A stretch of 64,000 nt of DNA, taken from IMG/VR virus record IMGVR_UViG_3300030102_007485, positions 13,880-77,879 of that record, one strand, 5' to 3'. This document shows, one piece after another, positions 1-63,917 of this stretch. The notes under the pieces are model-generated. The model did no database searches, was not told where the DNA came from, and was given only the letters and a program-made list of their open reading frames with translations. Source of the stretch: a virus. Both the position numbers and the translations under genes were made by a program. How positions within the stretch are numbered: position 1 is the first letter of the stretch; each line of letters starts with the position of its first letter.

Positions 1-18
1 TCAGAAGTTACTTAAAAA

Positions 19-372
19 GTGGACAAAGAAATAAAAACAAGATATAAAGCAAAATTGATCCGGGTTGTCGATGGAGACACTATCGACGCCCAGATTGATT
101 TGGGTTTCGATATCTTTGTTAATAAAAGAATACGTTTATGGGGAATTAATGCCCCTGAGACGCGTTCAAAGGACAAGGATGAGGTTAGTGCTGGAAAGAA
201 GACTTTGATGCGTCTAGCGTCCATTCTCGCCCTCTCAGGTGGAGAGTTTGAGGTAATCACTCACGGTGATGGCAAGTATGGTCGGTGTTTGGGCGAAATA
301 TACGTGGAAGACTTCCAAGAAAGTGTAAATCAACTACTAATCAATGAAGGTCTAGCAAAGGAATATATATAA
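19..372 (+). CDS. Thermonuclease (SNase-like) nuclease
   Basis: RVVDGDTID, RIRLWGINAPE, GKYGRCLG and VNQLLINEGLA are SNase-family motifs; GTG start after an in-frame stop at 13-15. Confidence 0.9.
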   Translation: MDKEIKTRYKAKLIRVVDGDTIDAQIDLGFDIFVNKRIRLWGINAPETRSKDKDEVSAGKKTLMRLASILALSGGEFEVITHGDGKYGRCLGEIYVEDFQESVNQLLINEGLAKEYI

Positions 373-713
373 TGAAAAAGATTGTTGAAAATTTTCGTAA
401 ATTCGCAGATTCGGGTGATGAAATTGATAAATTGGTTGCGAAATACTATTCTGACCTGAGTGATGACGCCCGTCAGGAGAAGGTAGACTTTTTCAAGAAA
501 AGGATGAAAGCGTCAGTTCGGACCAATGGAGAATGGATTCGCAAAACTATGCTTCATTCTTTTGAGCAAAAAATGAAAGCAGAACGGCAAAGAAGAGAAA
601 GGACACCAGAAGAGACCGCCGCAGCAAAGGCAGCATCAGAAAAATCAAAATTAAAATCAGATGAAAGAGAAAGGGAGATGAGAAGAAAGTACGGCAGAAG
701 GTGGAATAAGTAA
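372..713 (+). CDS. Charged hypothetical protein with MKKIVENFRKF N-terminus
   Basis: ORF overlaps upstream stop; N-terminus resembles that of ORF 9061. Confidence 0.7.
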   Translation: MKKIVENFRKFADSGDEIDKLVAKYYSDLSDDARQEKVDFFKKRMKASVRTNGEWIRKTMLHSFEQKMKAERQRRERTPEETAAAKAASEKSKLKSDEREREMRRKYGRRWNK

Positions 714-23988: not shown

Positions 23989-24588
23989 ATGTCTGATTAC
24001 ATAAAGATAATAAAAACAAATAAAAAAAATATACAATTTGACATCCGACATAGGAGTGTTATAGACAGTTTTCCTGTCTATGACCCTGTAAGAACAGTCT
24101 TAGATGTTGGGTGTGGTCACGCCGCCGTCCCTAGGGAGTTGAGTGCCATGGGATTCACTGTCGATGCCATAGACATCGAGGAGAAAAGCAGTTGGAGTGA
24201 ACCCACAGGCGTAAATTTTATTCAGGATGATTTTATGGTTTCTAATAAGATTAAAAATGAGTATGACGTTGTTATGTGTTGTGAGGTGTTGGAGCATTTG
24301 ACAAATTACAAAGAATTTTTTAACAAACTAATCAGTCTCGCAAAGCACAGACTGATCATCACTGTACCTTGGGAAAGATCCTACGACATGCCAGGTGATC
24401 CACCCATAGGTCATTGTAATTTTTGGTCAGATCAAGAAACTGGTAGTTTTAAGTCGATTGATGAGTTTTTGGATTTTGCAGAACCCTATTCTGTTTCCAT
24501 ATCAAAAATCTTAACAAAACCAAGAGATGTTTCTATGAAGCAAAAGGATTACCTAATCATCATAGACAAAAGGCAGACACATGGTTAG
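23989..24588 (+). CDS. Class I SAM-dependent methyltransferase
   Basis: VLDVGCG, CEVLEHL, ITVP. Confidence 0.9.
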   Translation: MSDYIKIIKTNKKNIQFDIRHRSVIDSFPVYDPVRTVLDVGCGHAAVPRELSAMGFTVDAIDIEEKSSWSEPTGVNFIQDDFMVSNKIKNEYDVVMCCEVLEHLTNYKEFFNKLISLAKHRLIITVPWERSYDMPGDPPIGHCNFWSDQETGSFKSIDEFLDFAEPYSVSISKILTKPRDVSMKQKDYLIIIDKRQTHG

Positions 24589-25453
24589 TGTCCTATTCGT
24601 GGGAGTTTTTGATAAAACCCGAACCTCAACAAATACATCTCAAATATTGTCATTTAAGAACATAGGTTGCGAGGTTGTTGGATATGACTATAGAAGGCGC
24701 GCACTAGAAATTGGCAATTCCAATAGAGACGTTGAGATTGTAGACCTTGTGAGGAAGAGGTCGTTTGACCTTGTTGTTTACAGTAAGTGTAGTGAGGTTT
24801 CAAGTGAAGTCTTTGTTGAAAATGCAAAAACAACTAAAACATGTATGTGGTTTATGGACCCGCTTATTTCATACAGCGACGAGATGCGCCAAAAAACTCG
24901 ACTAGTAGACTATTTTTGTTGTGATAAGGAGAATGTGCTGGAAGAGGCAAAAAAATATAATGAAAAAAGTTTTCATGTGTGCGAAGGGTACGATGAAGAA
25001 GTAGACAAACCAGTGCATGTAGATGTCAAGTACGATGTCAGTTTTATAGGCGATACATATGGTGATCGACTATCAAAGATCCGCAACATAAACACCCCAG
25101 TTCAGGTTATCAATGGTGTTTATGGTAAGAAACACGCTGAAGCGGTTTGCAGTACAAGGATAAATTTAAACTTTTGCACCTCAGACGGCGCTTCTGACAG
25201 GGTTTACAAGATCATGGCATCCGGTGGGTTTTTGTTGTCTGATGATTGGAAAGGTCGCGAAAAACACTTTAAAGATGGTCAAGAAATTGTTATATTTAAA
25301 TCTGTGGAAGATCTCAACGAAAAGATAGATTATTATCTAAAAAATCCACAACAAAGAAAAGACATAGCAAACAGTGCTTTGAAGAAAGTTAAAAAATTCA
25401 ATAGAGCAAACTGGGCAAAAAGAATAATCGACATATATGAGCAAATTAGATAA
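24581..25453 (+). CDS. CgeB-like GT-B glycosyltransferase
   Basis: YDVSFIG, SDRVY..MASGGFLLS. Confidence 0.8.
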   Translation: MVSVLFVGVFDKTRTSTNTSQILSFKNIGCEVVGYDYRRRALEIGNSNRDVEIVDLVRKRSFDLVVYSKCSEVSSEVFVENAKTTKTCMWFMDPLISYSDEMRQKTRLVDYFCCDKENVLEEAKKYNEKSFHVCEGYDEEVDKPVHVDVKYDVSFIGDTYGDRLSKIRNINTPVQVINGVYGKKHAEAVCSTRINLNFCTSDGASDRVYKIMASGGFLLSDDWKGREKHFKDGQEIVIFKSVEDLNEKIDYYLKNPQQRKDIANSALKKVKKFNRANWAKRIIDIYEQIR

Positions 25454-49003: not shown

Positions 49004-49405
49004 ATGTCTAGGGGATTAGCAGTAAAATTACCTTTGAGAATATCAGAAGAGTTTGGACCATACGACCTTCACACGGATATTAAGACAATGGTTCATCAAA
49101 ATTTAAAGATGATTTTACTAACAAATCCAGGAGAAAGAATAATGAATCCGGATTTTGGAGTTGGTCTTCAAACGTTTCTCCATGAACAAAACACGGCATC
49201 TTTGGTTGGTCGAATTTCATCCAAAATTCAAGAGCAGGTAGAAACGCACTTAGATTTTATAGAAATAACGGAAACATACATAGGTCCAGATCAAAATTCT
49301 CTTAATCCATCCGACAATGTTTTGTCCATAGTTATAAAATATAATATCATCCCAATCTCAGAAGAGGATATTCTATCAATTACTCTCTCAGATTTTGGTT
49401 TGTAA
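49004..49405 (+). CDS. Baseplate wedge gp25-like protein
   Basis: QNLKMILLTNPGERIMNPDFGVGL; SD AGGAGG. Confidence 0.93.
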   Translation: MSRGLAVKLPLRISEEFGPYDLHTDIKTMVHQNLKMILLTNPGERIMNPDFGVGLQTFLHEQNTASLVGRISSKIQEQVETHLDFIEITETYIGPDQNSLNPSDNVLSIVIKYNIIPISEEDILSITLSDFGL

Positions 49406-49438
49406 ACCTAATTATTTGGAAAGTTTTGAGGTTTTTTG

Positions 49439-51235
49439 ATGTCAATTAAGAAGATAGTTCCTATAGATTACACAAGTCGTGATTTTAATTCAATTAAAAA
49501 CGACCTAATAGAATACACCAAAAGGTATTATCCAGAAATCTTTAGGGATTTTAATGAAGCAAGTTTTGGTTCCTTGATGCTGGATACGGTCTCATACATT
49601 GGGGATATTTTGTCCTTTTACTTGGACTATCATGCCAATGAGTCTTTTATAGAAACATCTATAGAGTATTCAAACGTTTTAAACCACGCAAAGCAAATGG
49701 GTTACAAGCATTCAACCGCACCATCATCGCATGGAGTGGTAGATATACACTGTCTTATCCCCGCCAGCACAACATCTACAGCACCCGATTTTCAGTATGT
49801 TCCAACCTTGAGAAAGGGTACGACTTTTGGTACCAATTCTGGAAAGATATTTACCTTAAACGAGGACGTTAGTTTTGATCCTACCGGAAGAAACGAGGTG
49901 TACGTCTACTCAGAAACAGCACAAGGACCATCTTACTATGTAGTCCGTTCATCAGGGCAAGTTGTTTCAGGACGTCTTGAGCGCAAGGAGGTTACCGTAG
50001 GGGATTTTCAAAGATTTTTAAGAGTTGGTCTTGGTGACTCTCAAGTGTCTGAAATCATTTCAGTGACAGATGCACAAGGAAATGTATACTATGAAGTTGA
50101 TTATTTGTCTCAAAATATCATATTTAAGGAATTAGTCAATCGAGGAGTAAACTCTGACGAGGTACCGACCCTACTGAAACCATTTCCAGTTCCTAGGAGA
50201 TTTGTCGTAGAGCACGAGTCAGATGAGGTGTTTCTGCAATTTGGGTACGGATCAGAATCAGAACTGACAAACAAATCGATTATAGACCCAAGCGAAGTTA
50301 TATTGAAGGTACATGGTAAAGATTACGTTACGGACACGTCCTTTGACCCAAGTAAGTTGACGAGCACTGACAAGTTTGGCGTTGCCCCTAGCAATACAAC
50401 TTTAACAATTGTTACCAGGTCTAATAACCTTAATTCTGTTAACGCTGCCGTCGCTGAAATAAATCAAGTTATTCAACCAAGGGTCTTTTTTAAAAATGAG
50501 GACAACCTAAACGCATCGAAGGTCAAGACTATAGTTGGTAGTTTTGAAGTGGACAATAAGCAACCAATCGTCGGTAGTATCACCATACCAACAACCGAAG
50601 AGATAAAGCGCCGCGCCATTGACGTTTTTGCTACACAAAACCGTGCGGTAACTAAACGCGACTATGTGAGTTCTGTGTATAATATGCCACCTAAGTTTGG
50701 GGCAATCAAGAGGTGTGCAGTCCACCGCGATCATGACGAGATGAAAAGAAGTTTAAATATTTACGTCCTTTCAGAGAATTCTACCGGTAGTTTGACGAAG
50801 TCAAATATTACTTTAAAAAACAACTTAAAGACTTGGTTGAATTCTATTAGAATGATGAGTGACTCCATTAAAATCCTGGACGCTCAGATTGTAAACATTG
50901 GTATTGAATTTGACATCATGGTTGAGAATAGTGCTAATGAGGTGGAGGTGATGGCAAGATGCACGCAGGAGATTATTGACGATATGTTGCAGTTGAAGAT
51001 GGACTTGGGTCAACCATTTTATATAACTGATGTGTTTAAGTCTCTGAAGGATGTCGAGGGGTTGTTGGATGTTGTGGACGTAAGGATTACAAACAAGACC
51101 ACTGCACTGTATTCGCCAATTTTCTATGATCTTGAGGCAAATACTTCTGAGGACGGGAGATATATTGGGATTCCCTTTGACCATGTTTTTGAGGTAAAGT
51201 TCCCTAAAGCAGATATTGTAGGAAGAGTGGTATAA
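49439..51235 (+). CDS. Baseplate wedge subunit gp6-like / baseplate J
   Basis: DYTSRDFNSIK, DFNEAS.G, LQFG.G, TQNRAVTKRDY. Confidence 0.92.
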   Translation: MSIKKIVPIDYTSRDFNSIKNDLIEYTKRYYPEIFRDFNEASFGSLMLDTVSYIGDILSFYLDYHANESFIETSIEYSNVLNHAKQMGYKHSTAPSSHGVVDIHCLIPASTTSTAPDFQYVPTLRKGTTFGTNSGKIFTLNEDVSFDPTGRNEVYVYSETAQGPSYYVVRSSGQVVSGRLERKEVTVGDFQRFLRVGLGDSQVSEIISVTDAQGNVYYEVDYLSQNIIFKELVNRGVNSDEVPTLLKPFPVPRRFVVEHESDEVFLQFGYGSESELTNKSIIDPSEVILKVHGKDYVTDTSFDPSKLTSTDKFGVAPSNTTLTIVTRSNNLNSVNAAVAEINQVIQPRVFFKNEDNLNASKVKTIVGSFEVDNKQPIVGSITIPTTEEIKRRAIDVFATQNRAVTKRDYVSSVYNMPPKFGAIKRCAVHRDHDEMKRSLNIYVLSENSTGSLTKSNITLKNNLKTWLNSIRMMSDSIKILDAQIVNIGIEFDIMVENSANEVEVMARCTQEIIDDMLQLKMDLGQPFYITDVFKSLKDVEGLLDVVDVRITNKTTALYSPIFYDLEANTSEDGRYIGIPFDHVFEVKFPKADIVGRVV

Positions 51236-53793
51236 TGGCAATCAAAAGATTTGTTTCTAACAAAGACAACGTAATAACGAACGCATATAAATTTGACTTA
51301 CAAAATCGTGCAACTAAGTCTAACATGGGTCAGTCTGACGTTCTAGAGGTTTTTACAATTTATGGACAGCAGTCAAAGACCTCTATTGAGAAAACAAGGA
51401 TCTTGGTTCAATTTCCAATTGATGAACTCATTGCCCAACGGTCATCTGGCAATATCCCCAAGTCTGGAAGCGTCAAGTTTCACTTAACTTTGTTTAACGC
51501 CGAGCATGGACAAAGTGTGCCAAAGAACTACAACTTGCAGGTGAACCCTATCGCCCAGGCATGGGACGAGGGTTTTGGACTAGACATGGAAACCTACACA
51601 GACACAGGCGCATCCAACTGGGTATCTGCTTCTGCGGCATCACAAGTTCAGATCACAAAGTTTACTTTCAACAGTTCTTCTGCTGCCGACTACAGTGGAG
51701 CGTCTGTAAGTTTGTACGAGCAGGACGGTGATCGTCATAATTTTTGGTTTAAGCATAATGGTGGCGCTTCTGCCCCAACTCTCGACGGCACTGAGCATGA
51801 AGTGGACATCATAGGAAAAGTGACCCCAACAGAAATTGCAACCGCTTTTAGAAATTTTGTAGATCCTGTCGATGGATTTAGTGCCGTCTCCCAAGACAAT
51901 GACGGTACAGTAGTCAATGTTTCGACCACCACTGCAGGATCCGTGTCGTCCTTCTCTTTTAATTCCTTACCCAGTAATACTATAGTGGGGGAGGTGACAC
52001 AGCAGGGTACCTCTGCAGAACTCTGGACCAAAGAAGGTTCATCTTATTGGCAATCTCCAGACATAAAATCAACCGAGTTTTCTTATTCTCAGACTTTCAC
52101 AGAAGGTAGAGAAAATCTTGATATTGATATCACTGGACTTGTAGAGGAGTGGGTTAAAGGTGGTACAGGATCAGGACTCGTTGCCGCAAGTGGATCTTTA
52201 CTGTTTACGGGCACACCAGTAGACAACTCCACCATATCGGTCATCAGCACTGATGGATTGAAAAGGGAATATAGGTTTATGTCTTCGGGTATAACAAATG
52301 CCGAAACTGGATCTTCCGATTCTTCAGTCATTTTTGTGGATACAAGTTCAGGCAACACTTCAACTATAGCAACAAACTTTGGTTCTGCATTGAAATCTTT
52401 AAATGCCCACAGCACCAGGTTCACCACTAAAATCCACAGTAATTTAGTGGCGTTAACGCAATCTGCTTCAGGTTTCGGAGGAAACACAAAAGTTACAACC
52501 ACCGGAGTCACGAACACCACCTTGAACACATATCTTTCCGGTGGTGCTGGATCTTTGAATTACGGGTTGCTTGTTAATTTGCAGGGAACTTTTGAAGATG
52601 GTACTTTGGCGACATCCTTTTATACAAAAAAGTTTTTTGCAAGAGGTAGTGAGTTTATTCTAAAAAGACCAATACTGGAGGCGCGCTGGGATAGTGCTAT
52701 AACTGATGATCGTAATGACTTTTACTTGAGTAGTTCACTGCTGAGTGCTGCGGATAATTTGAATTCCATATATTTATATAATTATTTTCGAGGTACTTTG
52801 AATAACTTGCCCTCTGTTGGCACTGGGAATCTTTATGTGAAGTTCCTTGATAAGACAGGTGCAGAGATAACGACCTCGACACCTAGAAATCCAATAACCG
52901 CTTCATATTCATCAACGGGCATATACCGCGCTCAGGTTGCGCTCACGACTAATGAGACCCCCGTGACTGACGTTTGGTTTTTTGAAAAAGAGGCAACAGC
53001 AACGATTACCACCACAGGAAACCCTGGTAATAATCAAACCTTTTCCTTAAAGAACACCGCAGGCACTTCAACAACTTTTGTTTTTAAAACTGATTCTACA
53101 ACGGTTGACGGTACATTATCCGGTGCTAATGTAATAATTGGAGTTCAAAACGCCCTCGGATCCGCAGCAGCAGTTGGTGATAGGATTCGAGCAGCAATAA
53201 ATAATGTATCAGGTCTTAACATTACTGCGACTGAGACTTCTGGCGGTGCAATGACTTTGACCCAAGATGTTAAAGGATCGGCAGGAAACACAACAATTGA
53301 TACAAGTGGTGTCACCACTGTTGATTCGACCTCTTTCACCGGCGGCGTTGGACCAACAGAGTTTCAGAGAGGGCAAATCGTGCCCAAGACCCATACATCT
53401 AACGCGCATAGACCAGATTTCAACTATGTTTCGAAATTATTAAATCTAAAATCCACTTATAATACGCAAGAAAAACCACGCTTGCGCTTGTACATAAGGG
53501 AGCGAGATTGGTGTCCAAACATATATTCGATAGCAAGTAAAGAGATCGAATCTTCAGTTATTAAAAGCGCTTATTATAAGTTATCTAGAGTTGCAGATGA
53601 CTTTACAGTAATCAATTACGGCACTGGAAGTGTAGAGTACACTAAATTGTCTTATGATGCAAGCGGCAGTTACTTTGATTTGGATATGTCGATTCTTGAG
53701 GAGGGTCATTCGTATGAGATTTCTGTTGTTTACAAGTTAGACAATGATTACAAAGAGCAGAATGACAAGTTTAGATTTAGAGTAGATCCATGA
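51235..53793 (+). CDS. Baseplate/tail protein with DNRLRE-like domain and three inserted modules
   Basis: RILVQF, AWDEG, DITGLVEEW...NYGLL, RPILEARW. Confidence 0.7.
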   Translation: MAIKRFVSNKDNVITNAYKFDLQNRATKSNMGQSDVLEVFTIYGQQSKTSIEKTRILVQFPIDELIAQRSSGNIPKSGSVKFHLTLFNAEHGQSVPKNYNLQVNPIAQAWDEGFGLDMETYTDTGASNWVSASAASQVQITKFTFNSSSAADYSGASVSLYEQDGDRHNFWFKHNGGASAPTLDGTEHEVDIIGKVTPTEIATAFRNFVDPVDGFSAVSQDNDGTVVNVSTTTAGSVSSFSFNSLPSNTIVGEVTQQGTSAELWTKEGSSYWQSPDIKSTEFSYSQTFTEGRENLDIDITGLVEEWVKGGTGSGLVAASGSLLFTGTPVDNSTISVISTDGLKREYRFMSSGITNAETGSSDSSVIFVDTSSGNTSTIATNFGSALKSLNAHSTRFTTKIHSNLVALTQSASGFGGNTKVTTTGVTNTTLNTYLSGGAGSLNYGLLVNLQGTFEDGTLATSFYTKKFFARGSEFILKRPILEARWDSAITDDRNDFYLSSSLLSAADNLNSIYLYNYFRGTLNNLPSVGTGNLYVKFLDKTGAEITTSTPRNPITASYSSTGIYRAQVALTTNETPVTDVWFFEKEATATITTTGNPGNNQTFSLKNTAGTSTTFVFKTDSTTVDGTLSGANVIIGVQNALGSAAAVGDRIRAAINNVSGLNITATETSGGAMTLTQDVKGSAGNTTIDTSGVTTVDSTSFTGGVGPTEFQRGQIVPKTHTSNAHRPDFNYVSKLLNLKSTYNTQEKPRLRLYIRERDWCPNIYSIASKEIESSVIKSAYYKLSRVADDFTVINYGTGSVEYTKLSYDASGSYFDLDMSILEEGHSYEISVVYKLDNDYKEQNDKFRFRVDP
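52993..53352 (+). repeat. ~120-aa inserted module, copy A (ATATITTTGNP...FTGGVG)
   Basis: Protein-level alignment with copies B and C. Confidence 0.9.
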
Positions 53794-56700
53794 GTTTAAA
53801 GAAATTTTTTGAAGATAAAGACAGAAAAATCATCAAGTTGGTTGATTACAAGGCATCTGAAGAACTGCTTGAAGAGCAGTCTTACACGCATGACTTTATT
53901 GTCTCTAAAGAACTGACGTTAAGAAGGTTCGTACCAAGAGTAGATTACTCTGACCCCAAAAACTTTGCTTTTTTTGGCAACGCCGAAAGGTACTATGAAG
54001 ATTCGATAAAAAGAATCTATGACACTTATCCTTATGACGACTCTCCGCAAGAAAAAGAACAATGGTTCTTAAGTTCTTCGTATCTTGATTTGCATGTTTT
54101 TAGGAATGATTACCCAAGTACGACAGGTTATATAGAATTTGCCCCTTTGGGATGGGGATCCCAATCTTCGGTATCTGCAAGTTACGGAAATCCAGCATTC
54201 AAAGAGTATATATATGTTAAGGGTGGACCAAACAAGAACAACGAGTACAAACCTGATAAAAACAAAGAGTCGAATCTAAAACTAGACGCCTCAAGGGGTA
54301 ATACTGTTGAGTTTTTCCTAAAAAAGAAAGAGTTTGTCCCATCTTTGACCAAAAAAGAGGTAATCTTCGACTGCGCAACAAATGATTCAGATATTTCGGC
54401 GTTTGGGTCGTCATATGGAAGGTTTAGGGTTGAATTAGACAGTCAGGCAACTGGCAGTCCGTTTCTTGTGACTTATTCTTCAGGATCCAGAGGTGCATCT
54501 GATGTAGTTCTTGGTCAATCTTTACCAAAATCAAGTGTTGCAGACGATAATTGGCATCATTATGCTGTCTCTGTTCATAATTCTGGTTCTACCTTAGAGA
54601 TTTCACTTTATGTTGATGGTGCATTGAATCATACTGTCAAGTCAGGTACTTCTTGCGCCGCAAACGATGTTAATTTTAATGCAAATATTGGCGCTCTTGT
54701 TACTGCTCCTACATCAACATCTACTGCCGCTATCGGTTGGGGCAAACTGTCTGGATCTTTAGATGAATTTAGGTTTTGGAAGGTCAAAAGAGATGGAAAG
54801 CAAATCGGGTCGAACTGGAGACATCAAGTAACTGGAGGTTCCAATTTCAAAGAAGTTACCGGCGATCTTGGAGTGTATTTTAAGTTTAACGAAGGCATCA
54901 CTGGCGATACAGAAGTGGACAAGGTGGTCTTAGATTATTCAGGGCGTGTTTCAAACGGCAACTGGCAGGGTTATTATGCAAATTGCAGAAGTACAGGTTC
55001 TGCCATCGTTGAATCTGGCGCGAACACCGAAGAATTTAAGGACCCCATTATAAGATCCAATCATCCTCTTGTGCTCTCTTTGTTGGAAGAAAAGAGAAGT
55101 GTTGGTAGAAGTCATGACATGACAAACTCTTCAGCACTATACAATACGTTTCCAAACTGGATGCAGGCAGATGACGTTGATGCGTATAAGGGTTCTGGAA
55201 AACTTGCCGAGTTAGTTCAAATTATCTCTTCCTATTTTGACGTGCTTTATTTGCAAATCAAGGTGTTACCGGGACTAAAAGACAAAGCATACAGGGATTA
55301 TCCAACCCCACAACACCTGAGCGGATCAAAACCAGCACCCTTTGCCGACAAGTTGCTTAGGTCTTCTGGGTTTATTGCACCGGAGTTATTTGTTGAGTCT
55401 AACGTTGTTGATCGAATTTTGGGACAAGATGCTAATCGATCTTATGAGCAAGACTTGACTGACATCAAGAATCTAATTTACAAGAACATATACAATAATT
55501 TAGTTAAGATTTACAAGTCAAAAGGTACAGAATCATCTTTTAGAAATCTCTTGAGATGCTTTGGTATTGACGATGAATTAATCAAGTTGAATCTCTATTC
55601 TTCGGGATATACATATAAATTTGAAGACACTTACCTCTACAAGTCAGAAAAGGTAAAGGGTATAAACTTTAATAATACGTCTTCTTTTGGCGCTACGGTG
55701 TTTCAGCAAACATCAAGTTACGGAAACACTCACTATATTTCCGGCAGCAAAAACATGTACATGCCGTACACCATTCAAACTGATGTCATAATGCCTTTGA
55801 AGTTAGTGTCCGGTCAGACAGGTTTCTTTGAAACAAACTTCTTGACTTCTTCAATTATGGGTATGCACACTCCAAAGGTCACCCCAGGAGATACAGATTG
55901 GGAGACTTCTGATCTTGCAGGATTTCAAGTTTTTGCGGTTCATCATCCAACTAGAGAGGGTGTTGCAAAGTTTATGCTCACCTCTTCGAAGGGTAATGTG
56001 CCAAAATTAAGCACTCCTTACCTTGAAGAGGTTTATGATGACAAACACTGGTCGCTTTCTGTGCGTGTGAAACCAGCACTACACCCAAGAGTTGGGTCTG
56101 TTGCTTCTTTTGCGAACGCTACAGCGACAATAACAACAACAGGAAATCCTAGTAATAACGAAGAGTTTGTCTTGACGGACGCAGACGGACGTTCAGTCAC
56201 GTACATATTTAAGACCTCTGTTGCAACGGTCGATGGGACAAAAGAAAATGGGAAGGTCATAATCGGATTGAACGGCGCATCAGGTCATGCTGCCTCTGTT
56301 GGTGATAGGATGAGGGCAGCAATCGGTGCTTCTGATCTAAATGTGACAGTGGTCGAAACTGCTGCTGGGCAGATGCGCCTGACCCAAAAGACTAAAGGTT
56401 CTAGTGGAAATACCTCAATTGATATGACTGCAGTAACAACGGTCACCTCCACAGACTTTACAGGAGGTGTAGGTCACTATACGGTAGAGTTCTCAGGATA
56501 CAATTACATTGTTGACGAATTGCAGCAAAGTTTTTCTTTGTCCGGGTCTTCCACTGTTTCAGCGCTTGGAGGATTTGCATCATCTAGGAAGTCTTTGTAT
56601 GTTGGTGCAAATCGCACAAATGCAACAGATACTGTTCAGCACTCTTCAGATATTATAGTGAACTCCGCACGAGTTTGGAAGGGTTACCTTGAAGAAGAAG

Positions 56701-59700
56701 AGTTAAAGAGTCATGCTCTGAGTTTTAACGAATATGGAAGACTAAATCCGTCCAAAAGTGCTTTCTTATTTGAGTCCGGATCAAACACGACAGAGGTAAA
56801 CCAGGCAGCGTCAATGTTGTTGCACTGGAACTTTGATCAAGTCACCGGGTCAGACGCTAATGGCGAGTTTTTTGTGGCAGATATTAGTAGGCAGTATTCG
56901 GGTTCCTTTGGCACACTCAACACTGCGCTTGATACATATCACGGCGGAACCGGTTTTGGTTTTCCAGCATCGGAACCTACCATGGTCCGCGGCATGTCTT
57001 TGGCGGTTGCAAAAGAAAACCTACCAGAAAATATCCACAATTCAAGTCTGGTTACAATAGAGACTCATGACAAGGAGAGATTGACAAGGTACACAAGACC
57101 TATAAATTATTATTTTGCTTTTGAAAAGAGCATGTATCAAACTATCTCTGAGGAGATGGTCAAGATGTTCGCAACCGTTGTTGAGTTTAACAATCTTATT
57201 GGCGAACCCGTAAACAAATACAGACCCACTTACAAGAAATTGGATCACTTGAGGTCCATGTTCTTCGCTAATGTGGATGAAGACCCAGACCTGGACAAGT
57301 ACGTGGAGTTCTATAAGTGGTTTGATGTCTCTATGGCAATGATGCTTGACGAATTGAGACCTGTGTCAATGCCAGGATCAGAAGGCATCAAGAACATGGT
57401 GGAGTCCCACATTCTTGAAAGAAGTAAATATCAGCACAGAGCACCCACGCTTGAGTTCAGAGACACCACGCCCGAGGCACATATCTTGGGTGTCAATGAG
57501 TTGTTGTACGATTGGGAGCACGGACACGCTCCAGTTGGAATGTCAAACCCTTCTGCCGCGGTCGGCACTATTACGACCACAGGCAACCCTGGAAACAACG
57601 AGACGTTTACCCTAACGGATGCCGACGGACTATCTGTTACTTACGTTTTCAAAACTGGAGTTGCGACTGTTGATGGAAGTAAAGATGGGGATAATGTTAT
57701 TATTGGAGTGAACGGTGCCACTGGTCACGCTCCTTCTGTTGGTGACCGTATGCGTGCAGCAATTACAGCATCTAGTTTGAATGTGACAGTGGTTGAGACT
57801 GCCGGCGGCGCGATGTCCTTGACACAAAACACAAAAGGTGCCAAAGGTAACACAAACATAGACATGTCGGGAGTTACAACTGTGACTGCCACCAATTTTA
57901 CTGGGGGTACTGGCACACTAGAGCAAGATAATTGTCTTTGGTGGAAGGATAGGGCACAAAGAGACGAATTGTTGTCTGTTTCATCAAAAGTAGACTCTGA
58001 CAGGGAGACAATAAAGACTAGAGCAAATACAGTTGTATCTGGATCAACCTACGTTATTAGAAAACTTTCCAGACCATATAGGTTTACAATGGAGAAAAAC
58101 AACCTAATTGATCCAGGTTCAAACGTTGCAACAAACAAAATAAACAATATGCATCAGGGTATTATAAAGTTTGGATCAACAACTGATGCAATTGAGTTGG
58201 CAGCAGCGGACTTAGAAGAGCAGGTTGTTTGTAATGATGTGTTTGTACCAAACCAAAAAGAAAGATTGCACGGGAAGATGGACACGTTAGGGACAGATGG
58301 ATACCTGGATGCAGATTCAGACCTGATCGCTCCATTTAGTTTGTACTCTTCTTCCGTGGGCGACAACGCGCTTTCCACTTTTAAGTCGGGCGTCGCTTTG
58401 ACAAATAACCATGGAGACTCTTATCACATAGATGGGCAGATCCCATTACAAGGTTTGTTTACTGCCCAACATGTTGGTGGAAAGGTGCATCGAGACGTTG
58501 AGGTTACGGTGTCTTCTCCTGAACTTCGACCCGAAGCATACGCCCTTGAGGTAACTGCTGGCAAGATAAAAATTGTTCATCAACCAACGAACAGACCTCG
58601 GTCTATGTTCTACAGAAATGAAATGATCAGACGCCCAGTAAATATTCGCAATATTCGGACAACAACGGGGTCTTACAAGGTCGGAAATTATCAAGAGGTA
58701 TACGAGTATGCGTTGACCAACGGAAGGCGCGAGAACAACAATGACTTCGCTCAAAACGATGGTTACACTGGGTCCTTATACAGTTCTGTCGCTGCTATTG
58801 CAACAGGGTTGCTGGACCAACCAAAACCAAATAGAAATAAAAACACTCATGTCATCGTTAATAGGTTTTCTGCACCAGGTGGTACTGAGGTCATGGGTGA
58901 TTCTAACGGTGGTCCGAACTTAGATTTTGCAGCAGCGGAATATTCAGTTTACAATAGCATGAACCACCGGAACTCTCTGGTTAGAGAAGTAAAAAATGAC
59001 CTAGAGGCAGAATACTCAGAAAGATTTGGACTCAGGAGTGGATCCGCACCAGTTGCGACCTCATACGAGATTGTTTCAGGATCTCAAAGGGGTTTTGCTT
59101 CTGTGCACATGACAAACAGAAATGAGTTGACTAAGTATGTTGTTGCTTCAACGTCAAACTATAACACCAAGGCAATATTGTTTGATGGTACAAACGATTT
59201 TCTAGAAATTGATGAAACTAGGGCGATATACAAAAACAATCAAAGTTTTTCGGTCTTCGCATGGATAAAGCATGGCACTGTGGATGTGTCATTTCAGCAC
59301 ACTATTTGGTCACATCATGATACTAGTGGAGCAAACAGGAATATTTTTGGAATAAAGGGTACTAGCACCAATAACGGAGTGACTCCTGGGACGTTGTTTT
59401 TCTATCAAGAAGGTCATTCGTGGCAATCACTGTCATCTGTAAGGATTGACGACAACCAGTGGCATCATGTTGGTTTCGTGTACGAAGGAGTCTCTAACAC
59501 GGTTAGACTGTATGTGGACGGCAAAGCACAACTTGGTGCAATCAGCATTTCAAACATTGCCGATCAGACAAATGATTCTAGTGATAAAGTTTCGATAGGT
59601 CAGGAATTTGACGGCGGGACGCCATCGGACTTTTTTAAGGGGTACATGACAGATGTCTCAATCTGGAGCAAACCACTTATCAACAATGAGGTGCATGAAA

Positions 59701-62700
59701 TATACACAGATGGCGAGTACGTTGGACCTCACGACCTAAATTCACACACAGCGACCTCGCATCTTGCAGCATGGTATCGAATGGGTGATGGCGACAACGG
59801 AAGCGGCACTGCGGATGCCTATAACGGTAGTATACATGATATGAGTGCAAACTCTTTTCACGCTGTGCCAACAAACCTTGCAGCATCCGCAATACAAACT
59901 GTGTCATCTGAACTTCCTGGGACCTTTAGTGTCTACGAGAGAAGGCAGCAGAGAGACAACGCTTTTGTTCAGCATCCAATTCCAAGAAATGATTTGCAGT
60001 ATAGTTGGATCGCCGCGAAGACAACTGATACAAGAGAGACGTTCCCTGGGTACAAGCATGATTTCACTATACCCGTTGGAATTGACACAGCAAGACAAAG
60101 AGAGATTGCAATCCTACAATCTTCAGCAGGAACATACTCTGATTTTGTTGGACTTCATTACACGTCGTCCGCTCCAACTATAATAAACTCATCTATCAAT
60201 ACTGGTAGCAATACGTTTTCTTATGATTTTGGAACTCTTGCTGACCGGCATCATTTGAGATCCTTTATCGCTAAAAGATCTCCATATGCCTGGAATTCCT
60301 GGAAGCAACTTCGTGGTGGCGACCATCCAATAGCAAAATATTATAGAAGTCAAAATATTATCTCCATCCACTTGAGGGACGGAGAACCTAATTCATCTCC
60401 TTTTATGGAATATGAGAGACCGCATGGTATAAATGAAAACAGAACAGTAACAAAGAGCAGGGTGATACAGAATTATCAAGAACCCTCTGTTACTTCACAG
60501 TACAAACCAATGGAACTCATGTTTGGGGTTATTAGTGATGCAAATTATGGTCAACTCCGAGAAGATACCCTTGGAGAAGGTGGAAAGGTTGGAACAGCGC
60601 AAAGAAGAAGAAGCAGGGTCTTCGGTGCTGAAAGGTCTGAAGTAAAGATGAAAATCTCTTACGCAAATAATCTTTGCAAATTTGCAAACAGAGACTTGAT
60701 GAACGTTCTTAAGTTGGAAGACACTGGACCAACAGATTTTGGGAATCTTTTGGAAAGCATGAGGTCAAACCTTATTGCAACCCCAAGAGGATTTAAATAT
60801 TCAGAAACAATATATCCAGCAGAAGTTAATGCGTATCAAAAGGAAACCAGACTTAGAACTGCTTTTGTTAGTCACGAATGGAGAGACACTAGACTTGCAA
60901 GGTTTGAAATGTTGACAAGAAGTGTCACAGAGAGGTCTTACAATTACGATTCTTGGTATACAAACACTATAGAAGCAAACACAAAAACAAACTCTCAGAA
61001 TGTTGCAATTCTAGATTCAAATAATGCCGGTTCTTTGAATTACCATCTGAGTCAAAGCATGTGGGCACTTGACGCCCGTAGTAATTTCGCTGCCATTCCT
61101 GAAAAGTTGTTATCAAGCAACCTGACTTGGTCCAGCAATGCACAGAGAGACGCTTATAAACTTCAATTTGTTACAAACCTTAAGGATTCTGGGGAGTTGC
61201 AAAATGGATACAGTATTTTCCATCAGTATGGTGCAACTCAAGGAAGGTACGACCTTTTGACCGCTGCATTGTATAATCGCAGAATTCCTCAAACGGTAGG
61301 GTCCAGCACTTATTTGGCAGGCGAAGCAAAATGGGAGGCAGGAGACCAAGCAGGCAAGTACCCTTTTGAGAAAGACTACAACACATGGGCAGAAGAGTTA
61401 AGGACTGTTCCAGATTTCTCTCTTATTCCAGAGTTTAGAATTTCGGAACATATTCCAAATTACTTAGAAAATGGAAACACTAGAGATCCAATTGAGACTT
61501 TTCTGGAATTAACCGGATCATCTTTGGACAGCAGTAAAGGTACTTTTTTCAAAACATATTCTAATACTGATTTTATGAAGTACTTTACAGTAGTTAAAGA
61601 CTCCTTGAGCAGTGGAAGTTTGGACAAAGAACCTTCTTCATTGTTTTTGAAGTGTTCCGCAATGCTTAAGATGCTTCCTTACGAAGGTTTTTACCCAGCA
61701 ACAAGAACTTTGAAAATAGCAGAACTCTTTCAAGAAGGTTACACAGACAACAACTTTGATCTCTCAACTATTGTTCCTGCTCCAACTAATGTTAATAAGC
61801 AGTTTTATAGCAGAGTTGCTAATACAAATGTCAGAACAAATATGCATCTTGCAACAAAGGCGTTATATGCTCCAGGGGTTTTGTATAATTCAATAAAATC
61901 TGGTGTTGCTGTTGATTATCCAATTTTTAAAAATGAAGGAATAGGCAAGTGGAGTTTGCAAACTTTCACCAGTTTTCCGCTCTTCTCCATATTAACCGTG
62001 ACTTCAGATAATGCCTCTGGGTCATTAAAGAACTTGTACACAGGATACGGAACTTCTATAACAGGAAGTTATTTAAATGGCACGCAAGACCAGTCGATAC
62101 CAAGAATTAAAGGTTCGGTCTCAAAGAGGGTTAGTTTTGAGGAAATGATTGACCCATCAGTATTGGAGGGGGTGATTTTGTACGATAACGAACCACACCC
62201 TTCTGCTTCATACGGAAGTTTTGCTTTTGGGAATCCTGACAGAACCACTTCACTAGACGCATTCCCTCGTTATGGACTCATGTTTGCTCAATCTGAATCG
62301 GACGCAACTGGTTCTGCTTGGCAAGCAGATATCCCTACTGCACGAGCAGGTGATACAACAGAGTATTCTTTGGCAATGAGTAATTTTGCTGCTGAAGTTC
62401 CAAACTTTTTCTTAAAAGATAACTCTCTTACAACTATCTTATCTGAACCTGGACCGTTTTCTTTTAACAAGTCAGAAATTGGTAAAACCTTTAAGATGAG
62501 ACTCACGTTCAAGAACAACTCTACATTGATGTATGACAATGTTTCTGCTTTTGGACCTCCTGTTGATAATAGTACTGGTGCAGGCGCAGGTGGGGATTAT
62601 GATTTTGATCCATATGTACCAGCATTTTTAAGAAAAAACGCGGACCCATTCGTGGAGTTTGTTTTTACTCCGACCAAGAGAGAGTATGCTATAGATGAAA

Positions 62701-63917
62701 TGCAGGGTGAGGTTACGGCAAGTTTTGGTTTGGGAAATACGACAAGATCTGTAAGATACAGTACAAATCTACAAGCTCAAATGACATTATCCAGTTCTTT
62801 GAATCTTTTCGGAACGCTCAAGGAACCTGCGGTCACTCTAGACAGAGATGGCAATCCATTGCAAGTAGAGGAGCGTGCTACAGACCGATTTAGGTGGATG
62901 ATCCAGACCAAGTGGGAATGTCCTGTTTTAGACTTTTCAACTTCTGATATTACCTTGTTCGACGTCACGGGCAGCAAAGAAGTGAAATTGACAGAGGAAT
63001 ACTCAAGTACTCCCGGTGCTTTAGGGACTCCATGGTCTACAACCAACAAAATAGGTAAGAAAAGTTCTTTTATGACAGGTTCAAGAGGTATGTGGCATCA
63101 GTATGGACAACTACCCGCTAAGGAAAAGGGTTATCAAATTGTGCTGTCAGACGTAAACGACCTTAGCGAATCCCTTGCATCAAAGATTGGATTCCCAGTT
63201 GGAACACCATTTCAGGTTGGTCAGGTTGCTGACGGAAAGGAGATTGGAGAGGCAATCGTAGCGGTGCCTTATTATGTAGAGTCAGGAGATTTAAACTTTT
63301 TTGATCTAGATGTTGAAGACATGAGAGAAGTTCTTGGAGAGTTTGATGCTCTGCGCGGAGAGATTGCCCTTACTCCTGGAGTAAATCCAGCAGTTAGGCA
63401 CCAGATAGAAATGATGCAGAAGTACATTTTCCCACCTCAGATGGATTTTGTAAAATATCGTGACAAAAGTCCAATTGCTATGTATGTTTTTGAGTTTACT
63501 CATGATTTGAGCAAGCAAGATCTTGTAGACTTGTGGCAAAATCTGCCTCCTAAAATTGGACAACATGCAGAGGGCACACAACAAAAGGTTGTCGGTCATC
63601 GTTTAGTCAAGAATGGACAAGTCAAGGATCCACTCAACGGAAGCATGGCAAACAAACTTCAATGGATGGTGTTCAAGGTTAAGCGCAAGGCAGAAAAGAA
63701 TTACTTTAAGAAACTTGATGATTCTGCTTTCCAAAAGTCAGGAAAATCAGGCAATGTTTTGCGAGAAGGGAAGAGTCTTGCTCTGATCGATACTTTGGAT
63801 CAAAAATTTAGTAAAACTGACGGATATTCATACAACTGGCCATATGATTACTTTTCACTAGTAGAACTAATTAAATTGGATGCAGAAGTGGTCTTCAGAG
63901 ATGATGAGGGCAACTAG
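53790..63917 (+). CDS. Giant (3375 aa) baseplate wedge gp7-like/tail protein with LamG domains
   Basis: YKSKGTESSFRNLLRCFG; DNWHHYAV..LYVDG..LDEFRFW; DNQWHHVG..LYVDG..DVSIW. Confidence 0.8.
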   Translation: MSLKKFFEDKDRKIIKLVDYKASEELLEEQSYTHDFIVSKELTLRRFVPRVDYSDPKNFAFFGNAERYYEDSIKRIYDTYPYDDSPQEKEQWFLSSSYLDLHVFRNDYPSTTGYIEFAPLGWGSQSSVSASYGNPAFKEYIYVKGGPNKNNEYKPDKNKESNLKLDASRGNTVEFFLKKKEFVPSLTKKEVIFDCATNDSDISAFGSSYGRFRVELDSQATGSPFLVTYSSGSRGASDVVLGQSLPKSSVADDNWHHYAVSVHNSGSTLEISLYVDGALNHTVKSGTSCAANDVNFNANIGALVTAPTSTSTAAIGWGKLSGSLDEFRFWKVKRDGKQIGSNWRHQVTGGSNFKEVTGDLGVYFKFNEGITGDTEVDKVVLDYSGRVSNGNWQGYYANCRSTGSAIVESGANTEEFKDPIIRSNHPLVLSLLEEKRSVGRSHDMTNSSALYNTFPNWMQADDVDAYKGSGKLAELVQIISSYFDVLYLQIKVLPGLKDKAYRDYPTPQHLSGSKPAPFADKLLRSSGFIAPELFVESNVVDRILGQDANRSYEQDLTDIKNLIYKNIYNNLVKIYKSKGTESSFRNLLRCFGIDDELIKLNLYSSGYTYKFEDTYLYKSEKVKGINFNNTSSFGATVFQQTSSYGNTHYISGSKNMYMPYTIQTDVIMPLKLVSGQTGFFETNFLTSSIMGMHTPKVTPGDTDWETSDLAGFQVFAVHHPTREGVAKFMLTSSKGNVPKLSTPYLEEVYDDKHWSLSVRVKPALHPRVGSVASFANATATITTTGNPSNNEEFVLTDADGRSVTYIFKTSVATVDGTKENGKVIIGLNGASGHAASVGDRMRAAIGASDLNVTVVETAAGQMRLTQKTKGSSGNTSIDMTAVTTVTSTDFTGGVGHYTVEFSGYNYIVDELQQSFSLSGSSTVSALGGFASSRKSLYVGANRTNATDTVQHSSDIIVNSARVWKGYLEEEELKSHALSFNEYGRLNPSKSAFLFESGSNTTEVNQAASMLLHWNFDQVTGSDANGEFFVADISRQYSGSFGTLNTALDTYHGGTGFGFPASEPTMVRGMSLAVAKENLPENIHNSSLVTIETHDKERLTRYTRPINYYFAFEKSMYQTISEEMVKMFATVVEFNNLIGEPVNKYRPTYKKLDHLRSMFFANVDEDPDLDKYVEFYKWFDVSMAMMLDELRPVSMPGSEGIKNMVESHILERSKYQHRAPTLEFRDTTPEAHILGVNELLYDWEHGHAPVGMSNPSAAVGTITTTGNPGNNETFTLTDADGLSVTYVFKTGVATVDGSKDGDNVIIGVNGATGHAPSVGDRMRAAITASSLNVTVVETAGGAMSLTQNTKGAKGNTNIDMSGVTTVTATNFTGGTGTLEQDNCLWWKDRAQRDELLSVSSKVDSDRETIKTRANTVVSGSTYVIRKLSRPYRFTMEKNNLIDPGSNVATNKINNMHQGIIKFGSTTDAIELAAADLEEQVVCNDVFVPNQKERLHGKMDTLGTDGYLDADSDLIAPFSLYSSSVGDNALSTFKSGVALTNNHGDSYHIDGQIPLQGLFTAQHVGGKVHRDVEVTVSSPELRPEAYALEVTAGKIKIVHQPTNRPRSMFYRNEMIRRPVNIRNIRTTTGSYKVGNYQEVYEYALTNGRRENNNDFAQNDGYTGSLYSSVAAIATGLLDQPKPNRNKNTHVIVNRFSAPGGTEVMGDSNGGPNLDFAAAEYSVYNSMNHRNSLVREVKNDLEAEYSERFGLRSGSAPVATSYEIVSGSQRGFASVHMTNRNELTKYVVASTSNYNTKAILFDGTNDFLEIDETRAIYKNNQSFSVFAWIKHGTVDVSFQHTIWSHHDTSGANRNIFGIKGTSTNNGVTPGTLFFYQEGHSWQSLSSVRIDDNQWHHVGFVYEGVSNTVRLYVDGKAQLGAISISNIADQTNDSSDKVSIGQEFDGGTPSDFFKGYMTDVSIWSKPLINNEVHEIYTDGEYVGPHDLNSHTATSHLAAWYRMGDGDNGSGTADAYNGSIHDMSANSFHAVPTNLAASAIQTVSSELPGTFSVYERRQQRDNAFVQHPIPRNDLQYSWIAAKTTDTRETFPGYKHDFTIPVGIDTARQREIAILQSSAGTYSDFVGLHYTSSAPTIINSSINTGSNTFSYDFGTLADRHHLRSFIAKRSPYAWNSWKQLRGGDHPIAKYYRSQNIISIHLRDGEPNSSPFMEYERPHGINENRTVTKSRVIQNYQEPSVTSQYKPMELMFGVISDANYGQLREDTLGEGGKVGTAQRRRSRVFGAERSEVKMKISYANNLCKFANRDLMNVLKLEDTGPTDFGNLLESMRSNLIATPRGFKYSETIYPAEVNAYQKETRLRTAFVSHEWRDTRLARFEMLTRSVTERSYNYDSWYTNTIEANTKTNSQNVAILDSNNAGSLNYHLSQSMWALDARSNFAAIPEKLLSSNLTWSSNAQRDAYKLQFVTNLKDSGELQNGYSIFHQYGATQGRYDLLTAALYNRRIPQTVGSSTYLAGEAKWEAGDQAGKYPFEKDYNTWAEELRTVPDFSLIPEFRISEHIPNYLENGNTRDPIETFLELTGSSLDSSKGTFFKTYSNTDFMKYFTVVKDSLSSGSLDKEPSSLFLKCSAMLKMLPYEGFYPATRTLKIAELFQEGYTDNNFDLSTIVPAPTNVNKQFYSRVANTNVRTNMHLATKALYAPGVLYNSIKSGVAVDYPIFKNEGIGKWSLQTFTSFPLFSILTVTSDNASGSLKNLYTGYGTSITGSYLNGTQDQSIPRIKGSVSKRVSFEEMIDPSVLEGVILYDNEPHPSASYGSFAFGNPDRTTSLDAFPRYGLMFAQSESDATGSAWQADIPTARAGDTTEYSLAMSNFAAEVPNFFLKDNSLTTILSEPGPFSFNKSEIGKTFKMRLTFKNNSTLMYDNVSAFGPPVDNSTGAGAGGDYDFDPYVPAFLRKNADPFVEFVFTPTKREYAIDEMQGEVTASFGLGNTTRSVRYSTNLQAQMTLSSSLNLFGTLKEPAVTLDRDGNPLQVEERATDRFRWMIQTKWECPVLDFSTSDITLFDVTGSKEVKLTEEYSSTPGALGTPWSTTNKIGKKSSFMTGSRGMWHQYGQLPAKEKGYQIVLSDVNDLSESLASKIGFPVGTPFQVGQVADGKEIGEAIVAVPYYVESGDLNFFDLDVEDMREVLGEFDALRGEIALTPGVNPAVRHQIEMMQKYIFPPQMDFVKYRDKSPIAMYVFEFTHDLSKQDLVDLWQNLPPKIGQHAEGTQQKVVGHRLVKNGQVKDPLNGSMANKLQWMVFKVKRKAEKNYFKKLDDSAFQKSGKSGNVLREGKSLALIDTLDQKFSKTDGYSYNWPYDYFSLVELIKLDAEVVFRDDEGN
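56118..56474 (+). repeat. ~120-aa inserted module, copy B
   Basis: ATATITTTGNPSNNE...VGDRMRAAI...FTGGVG. Confidence 0.9.
57558..57914 (+). repeat. ~120-aa inserted module, copy C
   Basis: AVGTITTTGNPGNNE...VGDRMRAAI...FTGGTG. Confidence 0.9.

What the first reader, a model, noticed from the sequence alone, without database searches (positions are those of the whole stretch)
51634..57914. A ~120-aa module inserted repeatedly, in frame, into loops of tail proteins
Seen: three close copies (52993-53352, 56118-56474, 57558-57914) share TITTTGNPxNNxxF...VDG...VGDRxRAAI...LTQ..KG..GNT...FTGG across two genes. A diverged copy lies at 52183-52551 and a same-sized possible fifth insert at 51634-52008. 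They interrupt host domains: one sits between DITGLVEEW and NYGLL, which are normally close together in DNRLRE-like folds, and one splits a LamG-like region after KHWSLSVRV. The DNA is diverged at synonymous sites and I saw no terminal repeats or transposase. Inference: a small plug-in domain with adjacent N- and C-termini has spread among structural genes as a surface decoration, adhesion unit or glycan carrier.
Basis: partly seen in the sequence, partly recalled or inferred. Interest (0 to 1): 0.78.

Follow-up and report, generated by a model that had tools for sequence, protein, structure and literature searches.

The report
Plug-in surface domain shuffled among phage tail proteins
Two baseplate-region proteins of an uncultured marine giant phage carry five in-frame copies of one unnamed ~120-residue domain, folded like the outer domain of phage tail sheaths, set into loops of other domains; related phages have it at other sites or not at all, so it is a fast-turnover insertable building block, a new example of a known phage habit.

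Summary
The family has no Pfam, PHROG or NCBIfam model.

AlphaFold2 gives a confident alpha/beta fold. Its best match is the outer (insertion) domain of myophage tail sheaths. FliD and FliC outer domains and the T7 nozzle domain follow.

The copies lie inside host domains:
- Two interrupt a single CBM/DNRLRE-like beta-sandwich.
- One appears to sit at the tip of a hairpin.

Homologues show empty sites:
- The 852-aa protein has 478-aa relatives with no insert, and every mix of at least five sites.
- Pairs 95-98% identical differ by one clean 129-140-aa indel.
- The giant protein family has at least 12 insertion sites ("sockets").
- Two sockets hold either this module or a LamG cassette.

Module trees show same-genome sister copies at different sites and in both genes, so copying to new sites has happened repeatedly. 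Synonymous sites are saturated while the protein is conserved, so the module is under selection.

Function is inferred: an exposed accessory adhesion or bracing domain. A glycan-carrier role gets no support from co-occurrence.

This scan has already found the same phenomenon on other phage DNA. I found no paper describing it.

The parts
49004..49405 (+). gp25-like baseplate wedge gene (context)
   Evidence: PHROG 261/43 baseplate wedge subunit, E 7e-15
49436..51235 (+). gp6/J-like baseplate wedge gene (context)
   Evidence: PHROG 219/6, E 3e-26. The nearest isolates are Microcystis phage Mel-JY01 (33%) and Flavobacterium phage immuto (32%).
51235..53793 (+). P0001, an 852-aa baseplate-region protein. 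It has an N-terminal CBM/DNRLRE-like sandwich, a middle beta domain and a C-terminal Ig/MG-like sandwich, and it hosts three modules.
   Evidence: AF2 pLDDT 86.9. 8wab_B Z 17.9 over model range 1..486; C-terminal 727-852 Z ~8 to MG/Ig domains. The empty homologue P0063 hits NF033679 DNRLRE at 8e-5, below the cut-off.
51634..52008 (+). Module copy E (site 1), most diverged, inside the CBM-like domain
   Evidence: Family HMM 3e-9. Fold matches for 136..258: 7qof_a and 6r21_a, Z 7.9. Site-1 modules of many phages form one clade, support 99.
52183..52551 (+). Module copy D (site 2), between the helix DITGLVEEW and the strand NYGLL of the CBM-like domain
   Evidence: HMM 4.7e-6 and 5e-25. 9cb9_A Z 9.3, 6iwy_A Z 7.8. 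Empty homologues have 3-10 residues here.
52993..53352 (+). Module copy A (site 5), at the tip of a hairpin of the middle domain
   Evidence: Module-alone AF2 pLDDT 93.1, pTM 0.87. 8kee_A Z 10.6-10.7. Host strands 577-593 and 705-715 bracket it.
53790..63917 (+). P0002, a 3375-aa giant baseplate/fibre protein that hosts two modules and two LamG domains
   Evidence: Pfam Laminin_G_3, two stretches. 282 giant homologues. It always follows the P0001 homologue in 80 IMG/VR loci.
56118..56474 (+). Module copy B (site B, after KHWSLSVRV)
   Evidence: HMM 5e-65. The site is empty (0-10 aa) in over 100 homologues and occupied in about 5.
57558..57914 (+). Module copy C (site C)
   Evidence: HMM 1e-63. 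It is 88% identical to the site-B copy of the closest relative L008, which carries a LamG-like cassette at site C instead.
59166..59942 (+). LamG cassette (P0002 aa ~1793-2051) in a socket that holds the module in other phages
   Evidence: Pfam PF13385 at 1799-1968, E 4e-26. Absent from L008. P0270, P0271, P0294, P0312, P0303 and P0278 have a module whose flanks map to P0002 ~1758/2030.

Best explanation
SHOWN. The five stretches are copies of one autonomous ~120-residue alpha/beta domain with four strands, one long helix and two to three further strands. It has the fold of the outer (insertion) domain of contractile-tail sheaths, and a faint sequence link to it through the shared motif LT..aG..GN. 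Each copy is spliced in frame into a loop or hairpin of a host domain in two adjacent baseplate-region proteins. The proteins act as scaffolds with defined sockets: at least 5 in the 852-aa protein family and at least 12 in the giant protein family. Occupancy varies combinatorially between related phages, down to clean single-module indels between 95-98% identical proteins. At least two sockets accept either this module or a LamG cassette. Copies have repeatedly been duplicated to new sockets within a genome, including between the two genes. The unit copied is exactly the module. No transposase, nuclease or terminal repeats are present.

INFERRED, mechanism of spread. New sockets are seeded by rare illegitimate recombination of a module-coding segment into a permissive loop. 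Alleles with and without the module are then exchanged by ordinary homologous recombination between co-infecting relatives through the conserved flanks.

INFERRED, function (about 40-45%). The module is a dispensable, outward-facing accessory domain that enlarges and reshapes the surface of host-recognition proteins. It would give weak adhesion or avidity to host envelope polysaccharide, or brace neighbouring subunits, as proposed for sheath additional domains and for CBM insertions in evolved Dit proteins. The stated confidence applies to the structural and evolutionary part.
For: One family:
- HMM hits.
- 234 clusters among 1.84 billion representatives, in single-domain, tandem, nested and giant proteins and in one tail sheath.

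Fold:
- Module model pLDDT 93.1.
- VIA Z 10.6 (rmsd 2.8, 93 aligned) to A-1(L) sheath 94-189, 9.0 to PhiTE sheath, 8.2 to Mu sheath, 8.1 to FliC D2, 8.0 to FliD.
- Each of the three inserts in the whole-protein model matches the same set.
- The profile hits Milano sheath gp20 90-170 at E 0.0046.

Inside domains:
- 8wab_B aligns 173/176 residues over model range 1..486.
- The DNRLRE hit on the empty form spans both sites.

Empty sites and turnover:
- (P0008/P0029 98.2% identical with a 131-aa indel; P0006/P0007 96.4% with a 140-aa indel).
- Minimum changes on the host-core tree: 6, 3 and 12 for sites 1, 2 and 5.

Duplication to new sites:
- A well-supported clade (97) holds copies from both genes and many sites.
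- Same-genome sister copies occur in L004, L045, L041 and L034 (F1 plus F2).

Interchangeable cassettes.

Selection: codon position 3 is saturated while positions 1 and 2 are conserved.

No mobile-element features.

Functional precedents: PMC9230969 (sheath additional domains for stability or adsorption), PMC6669499 and PMC10688798 (CBM insertions in Dit aid adsorption).
Against: - No binding, exposure or dispensability was tested.
- Trees cannot tell gain from loss. Sites 1 and 2 look like old, vertically inherited inserts with losses rather than recent insertions.
- The module tree rests on 120 columns and a quick search, and many forks are unresolved.
- The conserved LT..G..GN motif is shared with sheath domains. 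It may therefore be structural rather than a ligand site.
Confidence: 0.8

Rival explanations
1. Glycan carrier. The Thr-rich modules are display platforms that the phage's own glycosyltransferase cluster O-glycosylates, as happens on flagellin outer domains.
For: - Modules hold 14.5% Thr against 7.6% in host parts, and are poor in charged and aromatic residues.
- The fold resembles P. aeruginosa FliC D2.
- The window carries GT4 glycosyltransferases and sugar-nucleotide enzymes.
Against: - GT4 genes occur in 12 of 14 related long contigs, including five whose P0001 homologue, and about 10 kb of giant gene, have no module.
- The two contigs without GT4 hits (67% and 81% complete) do have modules.
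- The near-invariant residues are G, N, Q, L and F, not Ser or Thr.
- A Thr/Gly/Ala-rich composition is common in exposed beta-rich domains.
Confidence: 0.1
2. Ancestral architecture with repeated loss only. All sockets were filled in an ancestor, and today's pattern is due to deletions; the module never moves.
For: - Site-1 modules form one clade and site-2 modules cluster, as expected for vertical descent with loss.
- Counts of changes cannot tell gain from loss.
Against: - One well-supported clade unites copies at many sites in both genes.
- Same-genome copies at different sites are sisters in at least four genomes.
- Window copy C is closer to the relative's site-B copy (88%) than the window's own site-B copy is (79%), while that relative has a LamG cassette at site C.
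- Nested copies inside copies exist in 18 proteins.
- Sites 3 and 4 are each occupied in only one of 125 proteins.
Confidence: 0.08
3. Ordinary beads-on-a-string repeats. The copies are tandem-type domain duplications that lie between host domains.
For: In other family members the module does occur in tandem arrays and as a single small protein.
Against: - One 176-residue CBM aligns across both N-terminal inserts.
- Empty homologues close the gaps with 3-10 residues within conserved blocks.
- Host strands bracket copy A.
Confidence: 0.03

Closest known systems
Outer/additional (insertion) domain of type-2 contractile tail sheath proteins: cyanophage A-1(L) 8kee, PhiTE 9cb9 (D3), Mu 9khy, XM1 7kh1, Milano gp20 8fop. 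Reviewed in PMC9230969.
   Same: - Same fold (Z 10.6, 9.0, 8.2).
- Weak sequence link including the motif LT..aG..GN (E 0.0046).
- Itself an insertion into a conserved core.
- Outward-facing and thought dispensable for the core function.
- One family member (P0130) sits in a sheath protein.
   Different: - Here the domain is in baseplate-region and giant fibre-like proteins, not the sheath.
- It is present in several copies per genome.
- Its presence or absence varies between close relatives.
- It is interchangeable with LamG cassettes.
Flagellar outer domains: FliD D2/D3, P. aeruginosa FliC D2 (4nx9), and Geovibrio thiophilus flagellin D4/D5, where D5 is a duplicate inserted in a loop of D4 (PMC11532411)
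   Same: - Similar fold (Z 6.5-8.1).
- Loop insertion.
- Self-nesting: 18 family proteins hold a whole copy inside a copy at HMM positions ~38-47.
   Different: - A different machine: phage tail rather than flagellum.
- No detectable sequence similarity.
- No nested copy in this window.
Carbohydrate-binding modules inserted into loops of 'evolved' Dit and other virion proteins of lactococcal and streptococcal siphophages (PMC6669499, PMC10688798, PMC7533335)
   Same: - Optional plug-in domains in loops of baseplate proteins.
- Present or absent among close relatives.
- Linked to adsorption.
   Different: - Different fold and family.
- Siphophages of Gram-positive hosts.
- Carbohydrate binding by the present module is untested.
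Ig-like decoration domains exchanged among phage structural proteins (Fraser et al. 2006, as cited in PMC9230969)
   Same: Small accessory domains spread horizontally among virion proteins, with a proposed weak carbohydrate adhesion role.
   Different: - Not an Ig fold (alpha/beta with a long helix).
- Inserted inside domains rather than appended at termini.

Membership tests
Sheath outer (insertion) domain superfamily | Shared three-dimensional fold | tested here: met
   8kee_A 94-189: Z 10.6, rmsd 2.8, 93 aligned. 9cb9_A Z 9.0. 9khy_a Z 8.2. Repeated for each insert in the whole model.
Sheath outer (insertion) domain superfamily | Detectable sequence homology | tested here: inconclusive
   Profile A4 against PDB sequences: Milano gp20 90-170 at E 0.0046, 19.8 bits, shared LT..aG..GN. 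No Pfam sheath hit on the module.
Sheath outer (insertion) domain superfamily | Resides in a tail sheath protein | tested here: not met
   The window copies lie in the two genes after gp6-like, with no sheath domains. Only the family member P0130 has Phage_sheath_1/1C.
Flagellin / FliD outer domains | Fold similarity and flagellar context | tested here: not met
   The fold is similar (4nx9_A Z 8.1, 6iwy_A Z 8.0). The context is a phage baseplate and there is no Flagellin_N/C or FliD Pfam hit.
Ig-like phage decoration domains | Ig/FN3/BIG beta-sandwich fold | tested here: not met
   The module model has a 15-residue helix packed on a sheet. The top fold matches are not Ig domains.
Mobile genetic element (transposon, intein, homing cassette) | Own enzyme, terminal repeats or target duplications | tested here: not met
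   No ORF or enzyme lies inside the 360-nt unit. Paralogue similarity ends at the module borders. No flanking direct or inverted repeats.
DNRLRE / CBM-like domain (host domain of copies E and D) | Match to NF033679 and CBM fold | tested here: inconclusive
   NF033679 hits the empty homologue P0063 at 53-206, E 8e-5, 22.8 bits, below the 34-bit cut-off. The fold matches strongly: 8wab_B Z 17.9, 7vbo_A Z 13.8. Carbohydrate binding was not tested.
LamG (host domain of copy B) | Profile match across the insertion site | tested here: inconclusive
   hhalign of 111 empty-site regions against the protein's N-terminal LamG: 132 columns, E 0.0016, probability 16%. No Pfam hit on the flanks or on P0304 there.

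The most novel reading that the evidence does not exclude
The sockets and their interchangeable plug-ins (this module, LamG) form a recombination-driven host-range diversification system. Co-infecting relatives swap cassettes through the conserved flanks, and the set of occupied sockets on the baseplate periphery and giant fibre sets which host strains are adsorbed. This would be a modular alternative to tail-fibre tip exchange or DGR mutagenesis.
Probability: 0.2. Interest if true: 0.75.

Novelty: new variant of a known kind. Interest (0 to 1): 0.55.

Why it matters
- It defines an unnamed, widespread phage domain family: 234 clusters at 50% identity, many BFVD models, no Pfam model. It also gives the family a fold assignment.
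- It shows that large marine myophages build their host-contact proteins as scaffolds with permissive loops that take optional domains.
- The sockets are natural, tolerated insertion points. The occupied/empty pairs are ready-made material for testing what such decorations do for adsorption and virion stability.
- Annotation pipelines would gain from a model of this family. At present the inserts break host-domain HMM matches: P0001 has no DNRLRE hit, while its empty homologue does.

Tried and rejected
- Pfam, PHROGs and NCBIfam on the module and on P0001 gave no family.
- tblastn of P0001 and of the module against 50,697 isolate phage records found no match.
- Foldseek of the whole 852-aa model against PDB gave only uninformative multi-domain beta-sandwich rows, TM about 0.1-0.2.
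- Foldseek of the module against PDB gave nothing at E <= 0.001, though it listed the same sheath and flagellar set that VIA-align then scored higher.
- Pfam on the flanks of sites B and C showed no LamG.
- The glycan-cluster co-occurrence test found no association.
The 80 IMG/VR loci held no such pair. The single metagenome scan returned only the occupied allele and 57-63% relatives. Junction microhomology could therefore not be examined.
- The terminal repeat search was negative.
- Literature searches for a description of this domain shuffling in myophage baseplate proteins found none.
Full report
**Setting**

The window is 64 kb of a 77.9-kb virus contig. Genes run on the + strand. A gp25-like gene (49004-49405) and a gp6/J-like baseplate wedge gene (49436-51235) are recognised by PHROGs. 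They are followed by an 852-aa ORF (P0001, 51235-53793) and a 3375-aa ORF (P0002, 53790-63917). The same gene pair, in the same order, is present in 80 fetched IMG/VR loci. At least 595 stretches of that collection encode P0001 relatives. Related contigs reach 191-195 kb and are judged complete. The nearest isolates by the gp6-like protein are only 32-33% identical: Microcystis phage Mel-JY01 and Flavobacterium phage immuto. This is therefore a fragment of a large, uncultured, probably marine myophage.

- An HMM of the three close copies finds them at E 1e-59 to 1e-65 and the diverged copy at 4.7e-6.
- Copies B and C are 61% and 64% identical to A, and D is 29% identical.
- The fifth insert is missed by that HMM. 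A family HMM iterated on fetched proteins finds it at 3e-9 (whole contig).
- There are no further copies in the contig.
- At the DNA level, paralogue similarity ends at the module borders. Third codon positions are near saturation (0.30-0.49 identity) while positions 1 and 2 are 0.7-0.9 identical.
- No terminal direct or inverted repeats flank the copies.
The pattern shows purifying selection on the protein.

**A real, unnamed domain family**

- The module has no Pfam, PHROG or NCBIfam match.
- A profile of four copies finds 234 clusters (E <= 1e-3) among 1.84 billion representatives.
- Architectures include small single-domain proteins, tandem arrays, giant proteins, a LamG protein, and one tail sheath protein with Phage_sheath_1/1C.
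- In 18 proteins a whole copy sits inside another copy, at HMM positions ~38-47.

**Fold**

- The module alone is modelled with pLDDT 93.1 and pTM 0.87.
- VIA-align against 48,161 PDB representatives gives:
  - A-1(L) sheath residues 94-189: Z 10.6, rmsd 2.8, 93 aligned.
  - PhiTE sheath: Z 9.0.
  - Mu sheath: Z 8.2.
  - P. aeruginosa FliC D2: Z 8.1.
  - H. pylori FliD: Z 8.0.
  - T7-like nozzle domains: Z 7.2-7.9.
  - T4 gp11: Z 6.5.
- Only the sheath matches stand above the typical background of 7-8.
- Foldseek lists the same set weakly.
- BFVD holds many uncharacterised phage proteins with TM 0.6-0.8.
- A sequence profile hits Milano sheath gp20 residues 90-170 at E 0.0046, aligning the family motif LTQ..G..GN to LTARNAGTIGN.
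- The ESM Atlas's nearest named clusters are a crAss auxiliary capsid protein, Flagellin_IN and the sheath-like DUF3383.

**Inside domains, not between them**

- The whole P0001 model has pLDDT 86.9 and pTM 0.74. All three inserts show the same order of strands and helix.
- VIA-align of the whole model aligns 173 of the 176 residues of a chondroitin-sulfate-binding CBM (8wab_B, Z 17.9, rmsd 2.6) over model residues 1..486. An alginate-binding CBM (7vbo_A) scores Z 13.8.
- Copies E and D therefore interrupt one beta-sandwich.
- The empty homologue P0063 matches the DNRLRE model over 53-206, spanning both sites. The match (E 8e-5) is below the cut-off.
- Copy A is entered by a host strand (577-593) and left by another (705-715). 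Empty homologues close this with a short turn.
- Each insert separately matches the sheath, FliD or nozzle set.
- For copy B, the LamG-like reading is only weakly supported.

**Empty sites and turnover**

- P0001 has more than 466 homologues, in length classes of about 478, 610, 740 and 852-887 aa.
- In 125 aligned homologues the occupancy is:

| Sites occupied | Homologues |
|---|---|
| none | 66 |
| site 2 | 24 |
| sites 2+5 | 15 |
| site 1 | 13 |
| sites 1+2+5 | 3 |
| sites 1+2 | 2 |
| sites 1+2+3 | 1 |
| sites 1+4+5 | 1 |

- On a host-core tree the minimum numbers of changes are 6, 3 and 12 for sites 1, 2 and 5.
- Nearly identical proteins differ by one clean indel:
  - P0008/P0029: 98.2% identical, 131 aa.
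  - P0006/P0007: 96.4%, 140 aa, at site 3.
  - P0018/P0044: 95.6%.
  - P0010/P0021: 95.3%.
- In the giant protein family, site B is empty in over 100 of about 115 homologues. Site C is empty in about 55, holds about 120-146 aa in about 25, and holds about 235-286 aa in about 10.
- Mapping module flanks onto P0002 gives at least 12 sockets.

**Interchangeable cassettes**

The closest relative (L008; giant protein 85% identical) has a LamG-like insert at site C where the window has copy C. It lacks the window's LamG at aa 1793-2051. In six other homologues, that second socket holds a module.

**Copying to new sites**

In a tree of 78 module instances (120 columns, quick search):
- Site-1 modules form one clade (support 99) and site-2 modules cluster. 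This is as expected for old, inherited inserts.
- A clade with support 97 unites window copies A, B and C with copies at many positions in both genes of five other phages.
- Same-genome copies at different sites are sisters in L004, L045, L041 and L034. In L034 one copy is in each gene.
- Window copy C is 88% identical to L008's site-B copy, whereas the window's own copy B is 79% identical to it.

**Function**

- Nothing was tested directly.
- Modules are Thr/Gly/Ala-rich and poor in charged and aromatic residues.
- GT4 glycosyltransferases are in the window. They occur in 12 of 14 related long contigs regardless of module content. The glycan-carrier idea therefore gains no support.
- By analogy with sheath additional domains (PMC9230969) and CBM insertions in evolved Dit proteins (PMC6669499, PMC10688798), I favour an exposed accessory role in adhesion or bracing.

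**Standing**

- The same phenomenon was already noted by this scan on other phage DNA. I used those notes as leads only. One lead, nesting and the Geovibrio flagellin precedent (PMC11532411), was checked here.
- I found no paper describing this family or its socket behaviour.

Noticed in passing
window 59166-59942 (P0002 aa ~1793-2051) and L008:9079-18804: LamG domains behave as cassettes too. The window's LamG is absent from the closest relative, which instead has a LamG-like ~225-aa insert at the socket where the window has module C.
   Followed up: partly
window 53790-63917 vs L008:9079-18804: Mosaic conservation of the giant protein. The last ~1300 aa are 97-100% identical between the two phages, while the first ~1500 aa are 60-90% identical. 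This is the reverse of the usual pattern of a conserved N-terminus and variable tip in fibres.
   Followed up: no
P0140, P0143, P0200, P0141, P0173 and 13 other fetched proteins: Russian-doll nesting. A complete module copy sits inside a loop (HMM positions ~38-47) of another copy. There are 20 such triplets in 18 of 240 proteins, and none in this window.
   Followed up: partly
L037, L052, L053, L058, L025 (P0001 homologues of 613-660 aa): These homologues are 130-180 aa longer than the empty form but have no hit to the module HMM. Either a further cassette type or a much more diverged module occupies a socket.
   Followed up: no
window 1115-2116: This ORF matches PHROG 1211 at E 2e-70. That family is annotated as an adenylosuccinate-synthetase-like enzyme of the PurZ kind, a possible hint of modified (2-aminoadenine) DNA.
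   Followed up: no
window 16347-18850, 24581-25453: Three GT4-type glycosyltransferases, with an epimerase, lie beside the baseplate genes. GT4 genes are present in 12 of 14 related long contigs, so the glycan cluster is a trait of the whole phage group.
   Followed up: partly
P0023 vs P0047: In one clade the 'site 5' insert sits before the D-I-W strand rather than after it. It is therefore a separate neighbouring socket, and the count of sockets in the 852-aa protein family is a lower bound.
   Followed up: no
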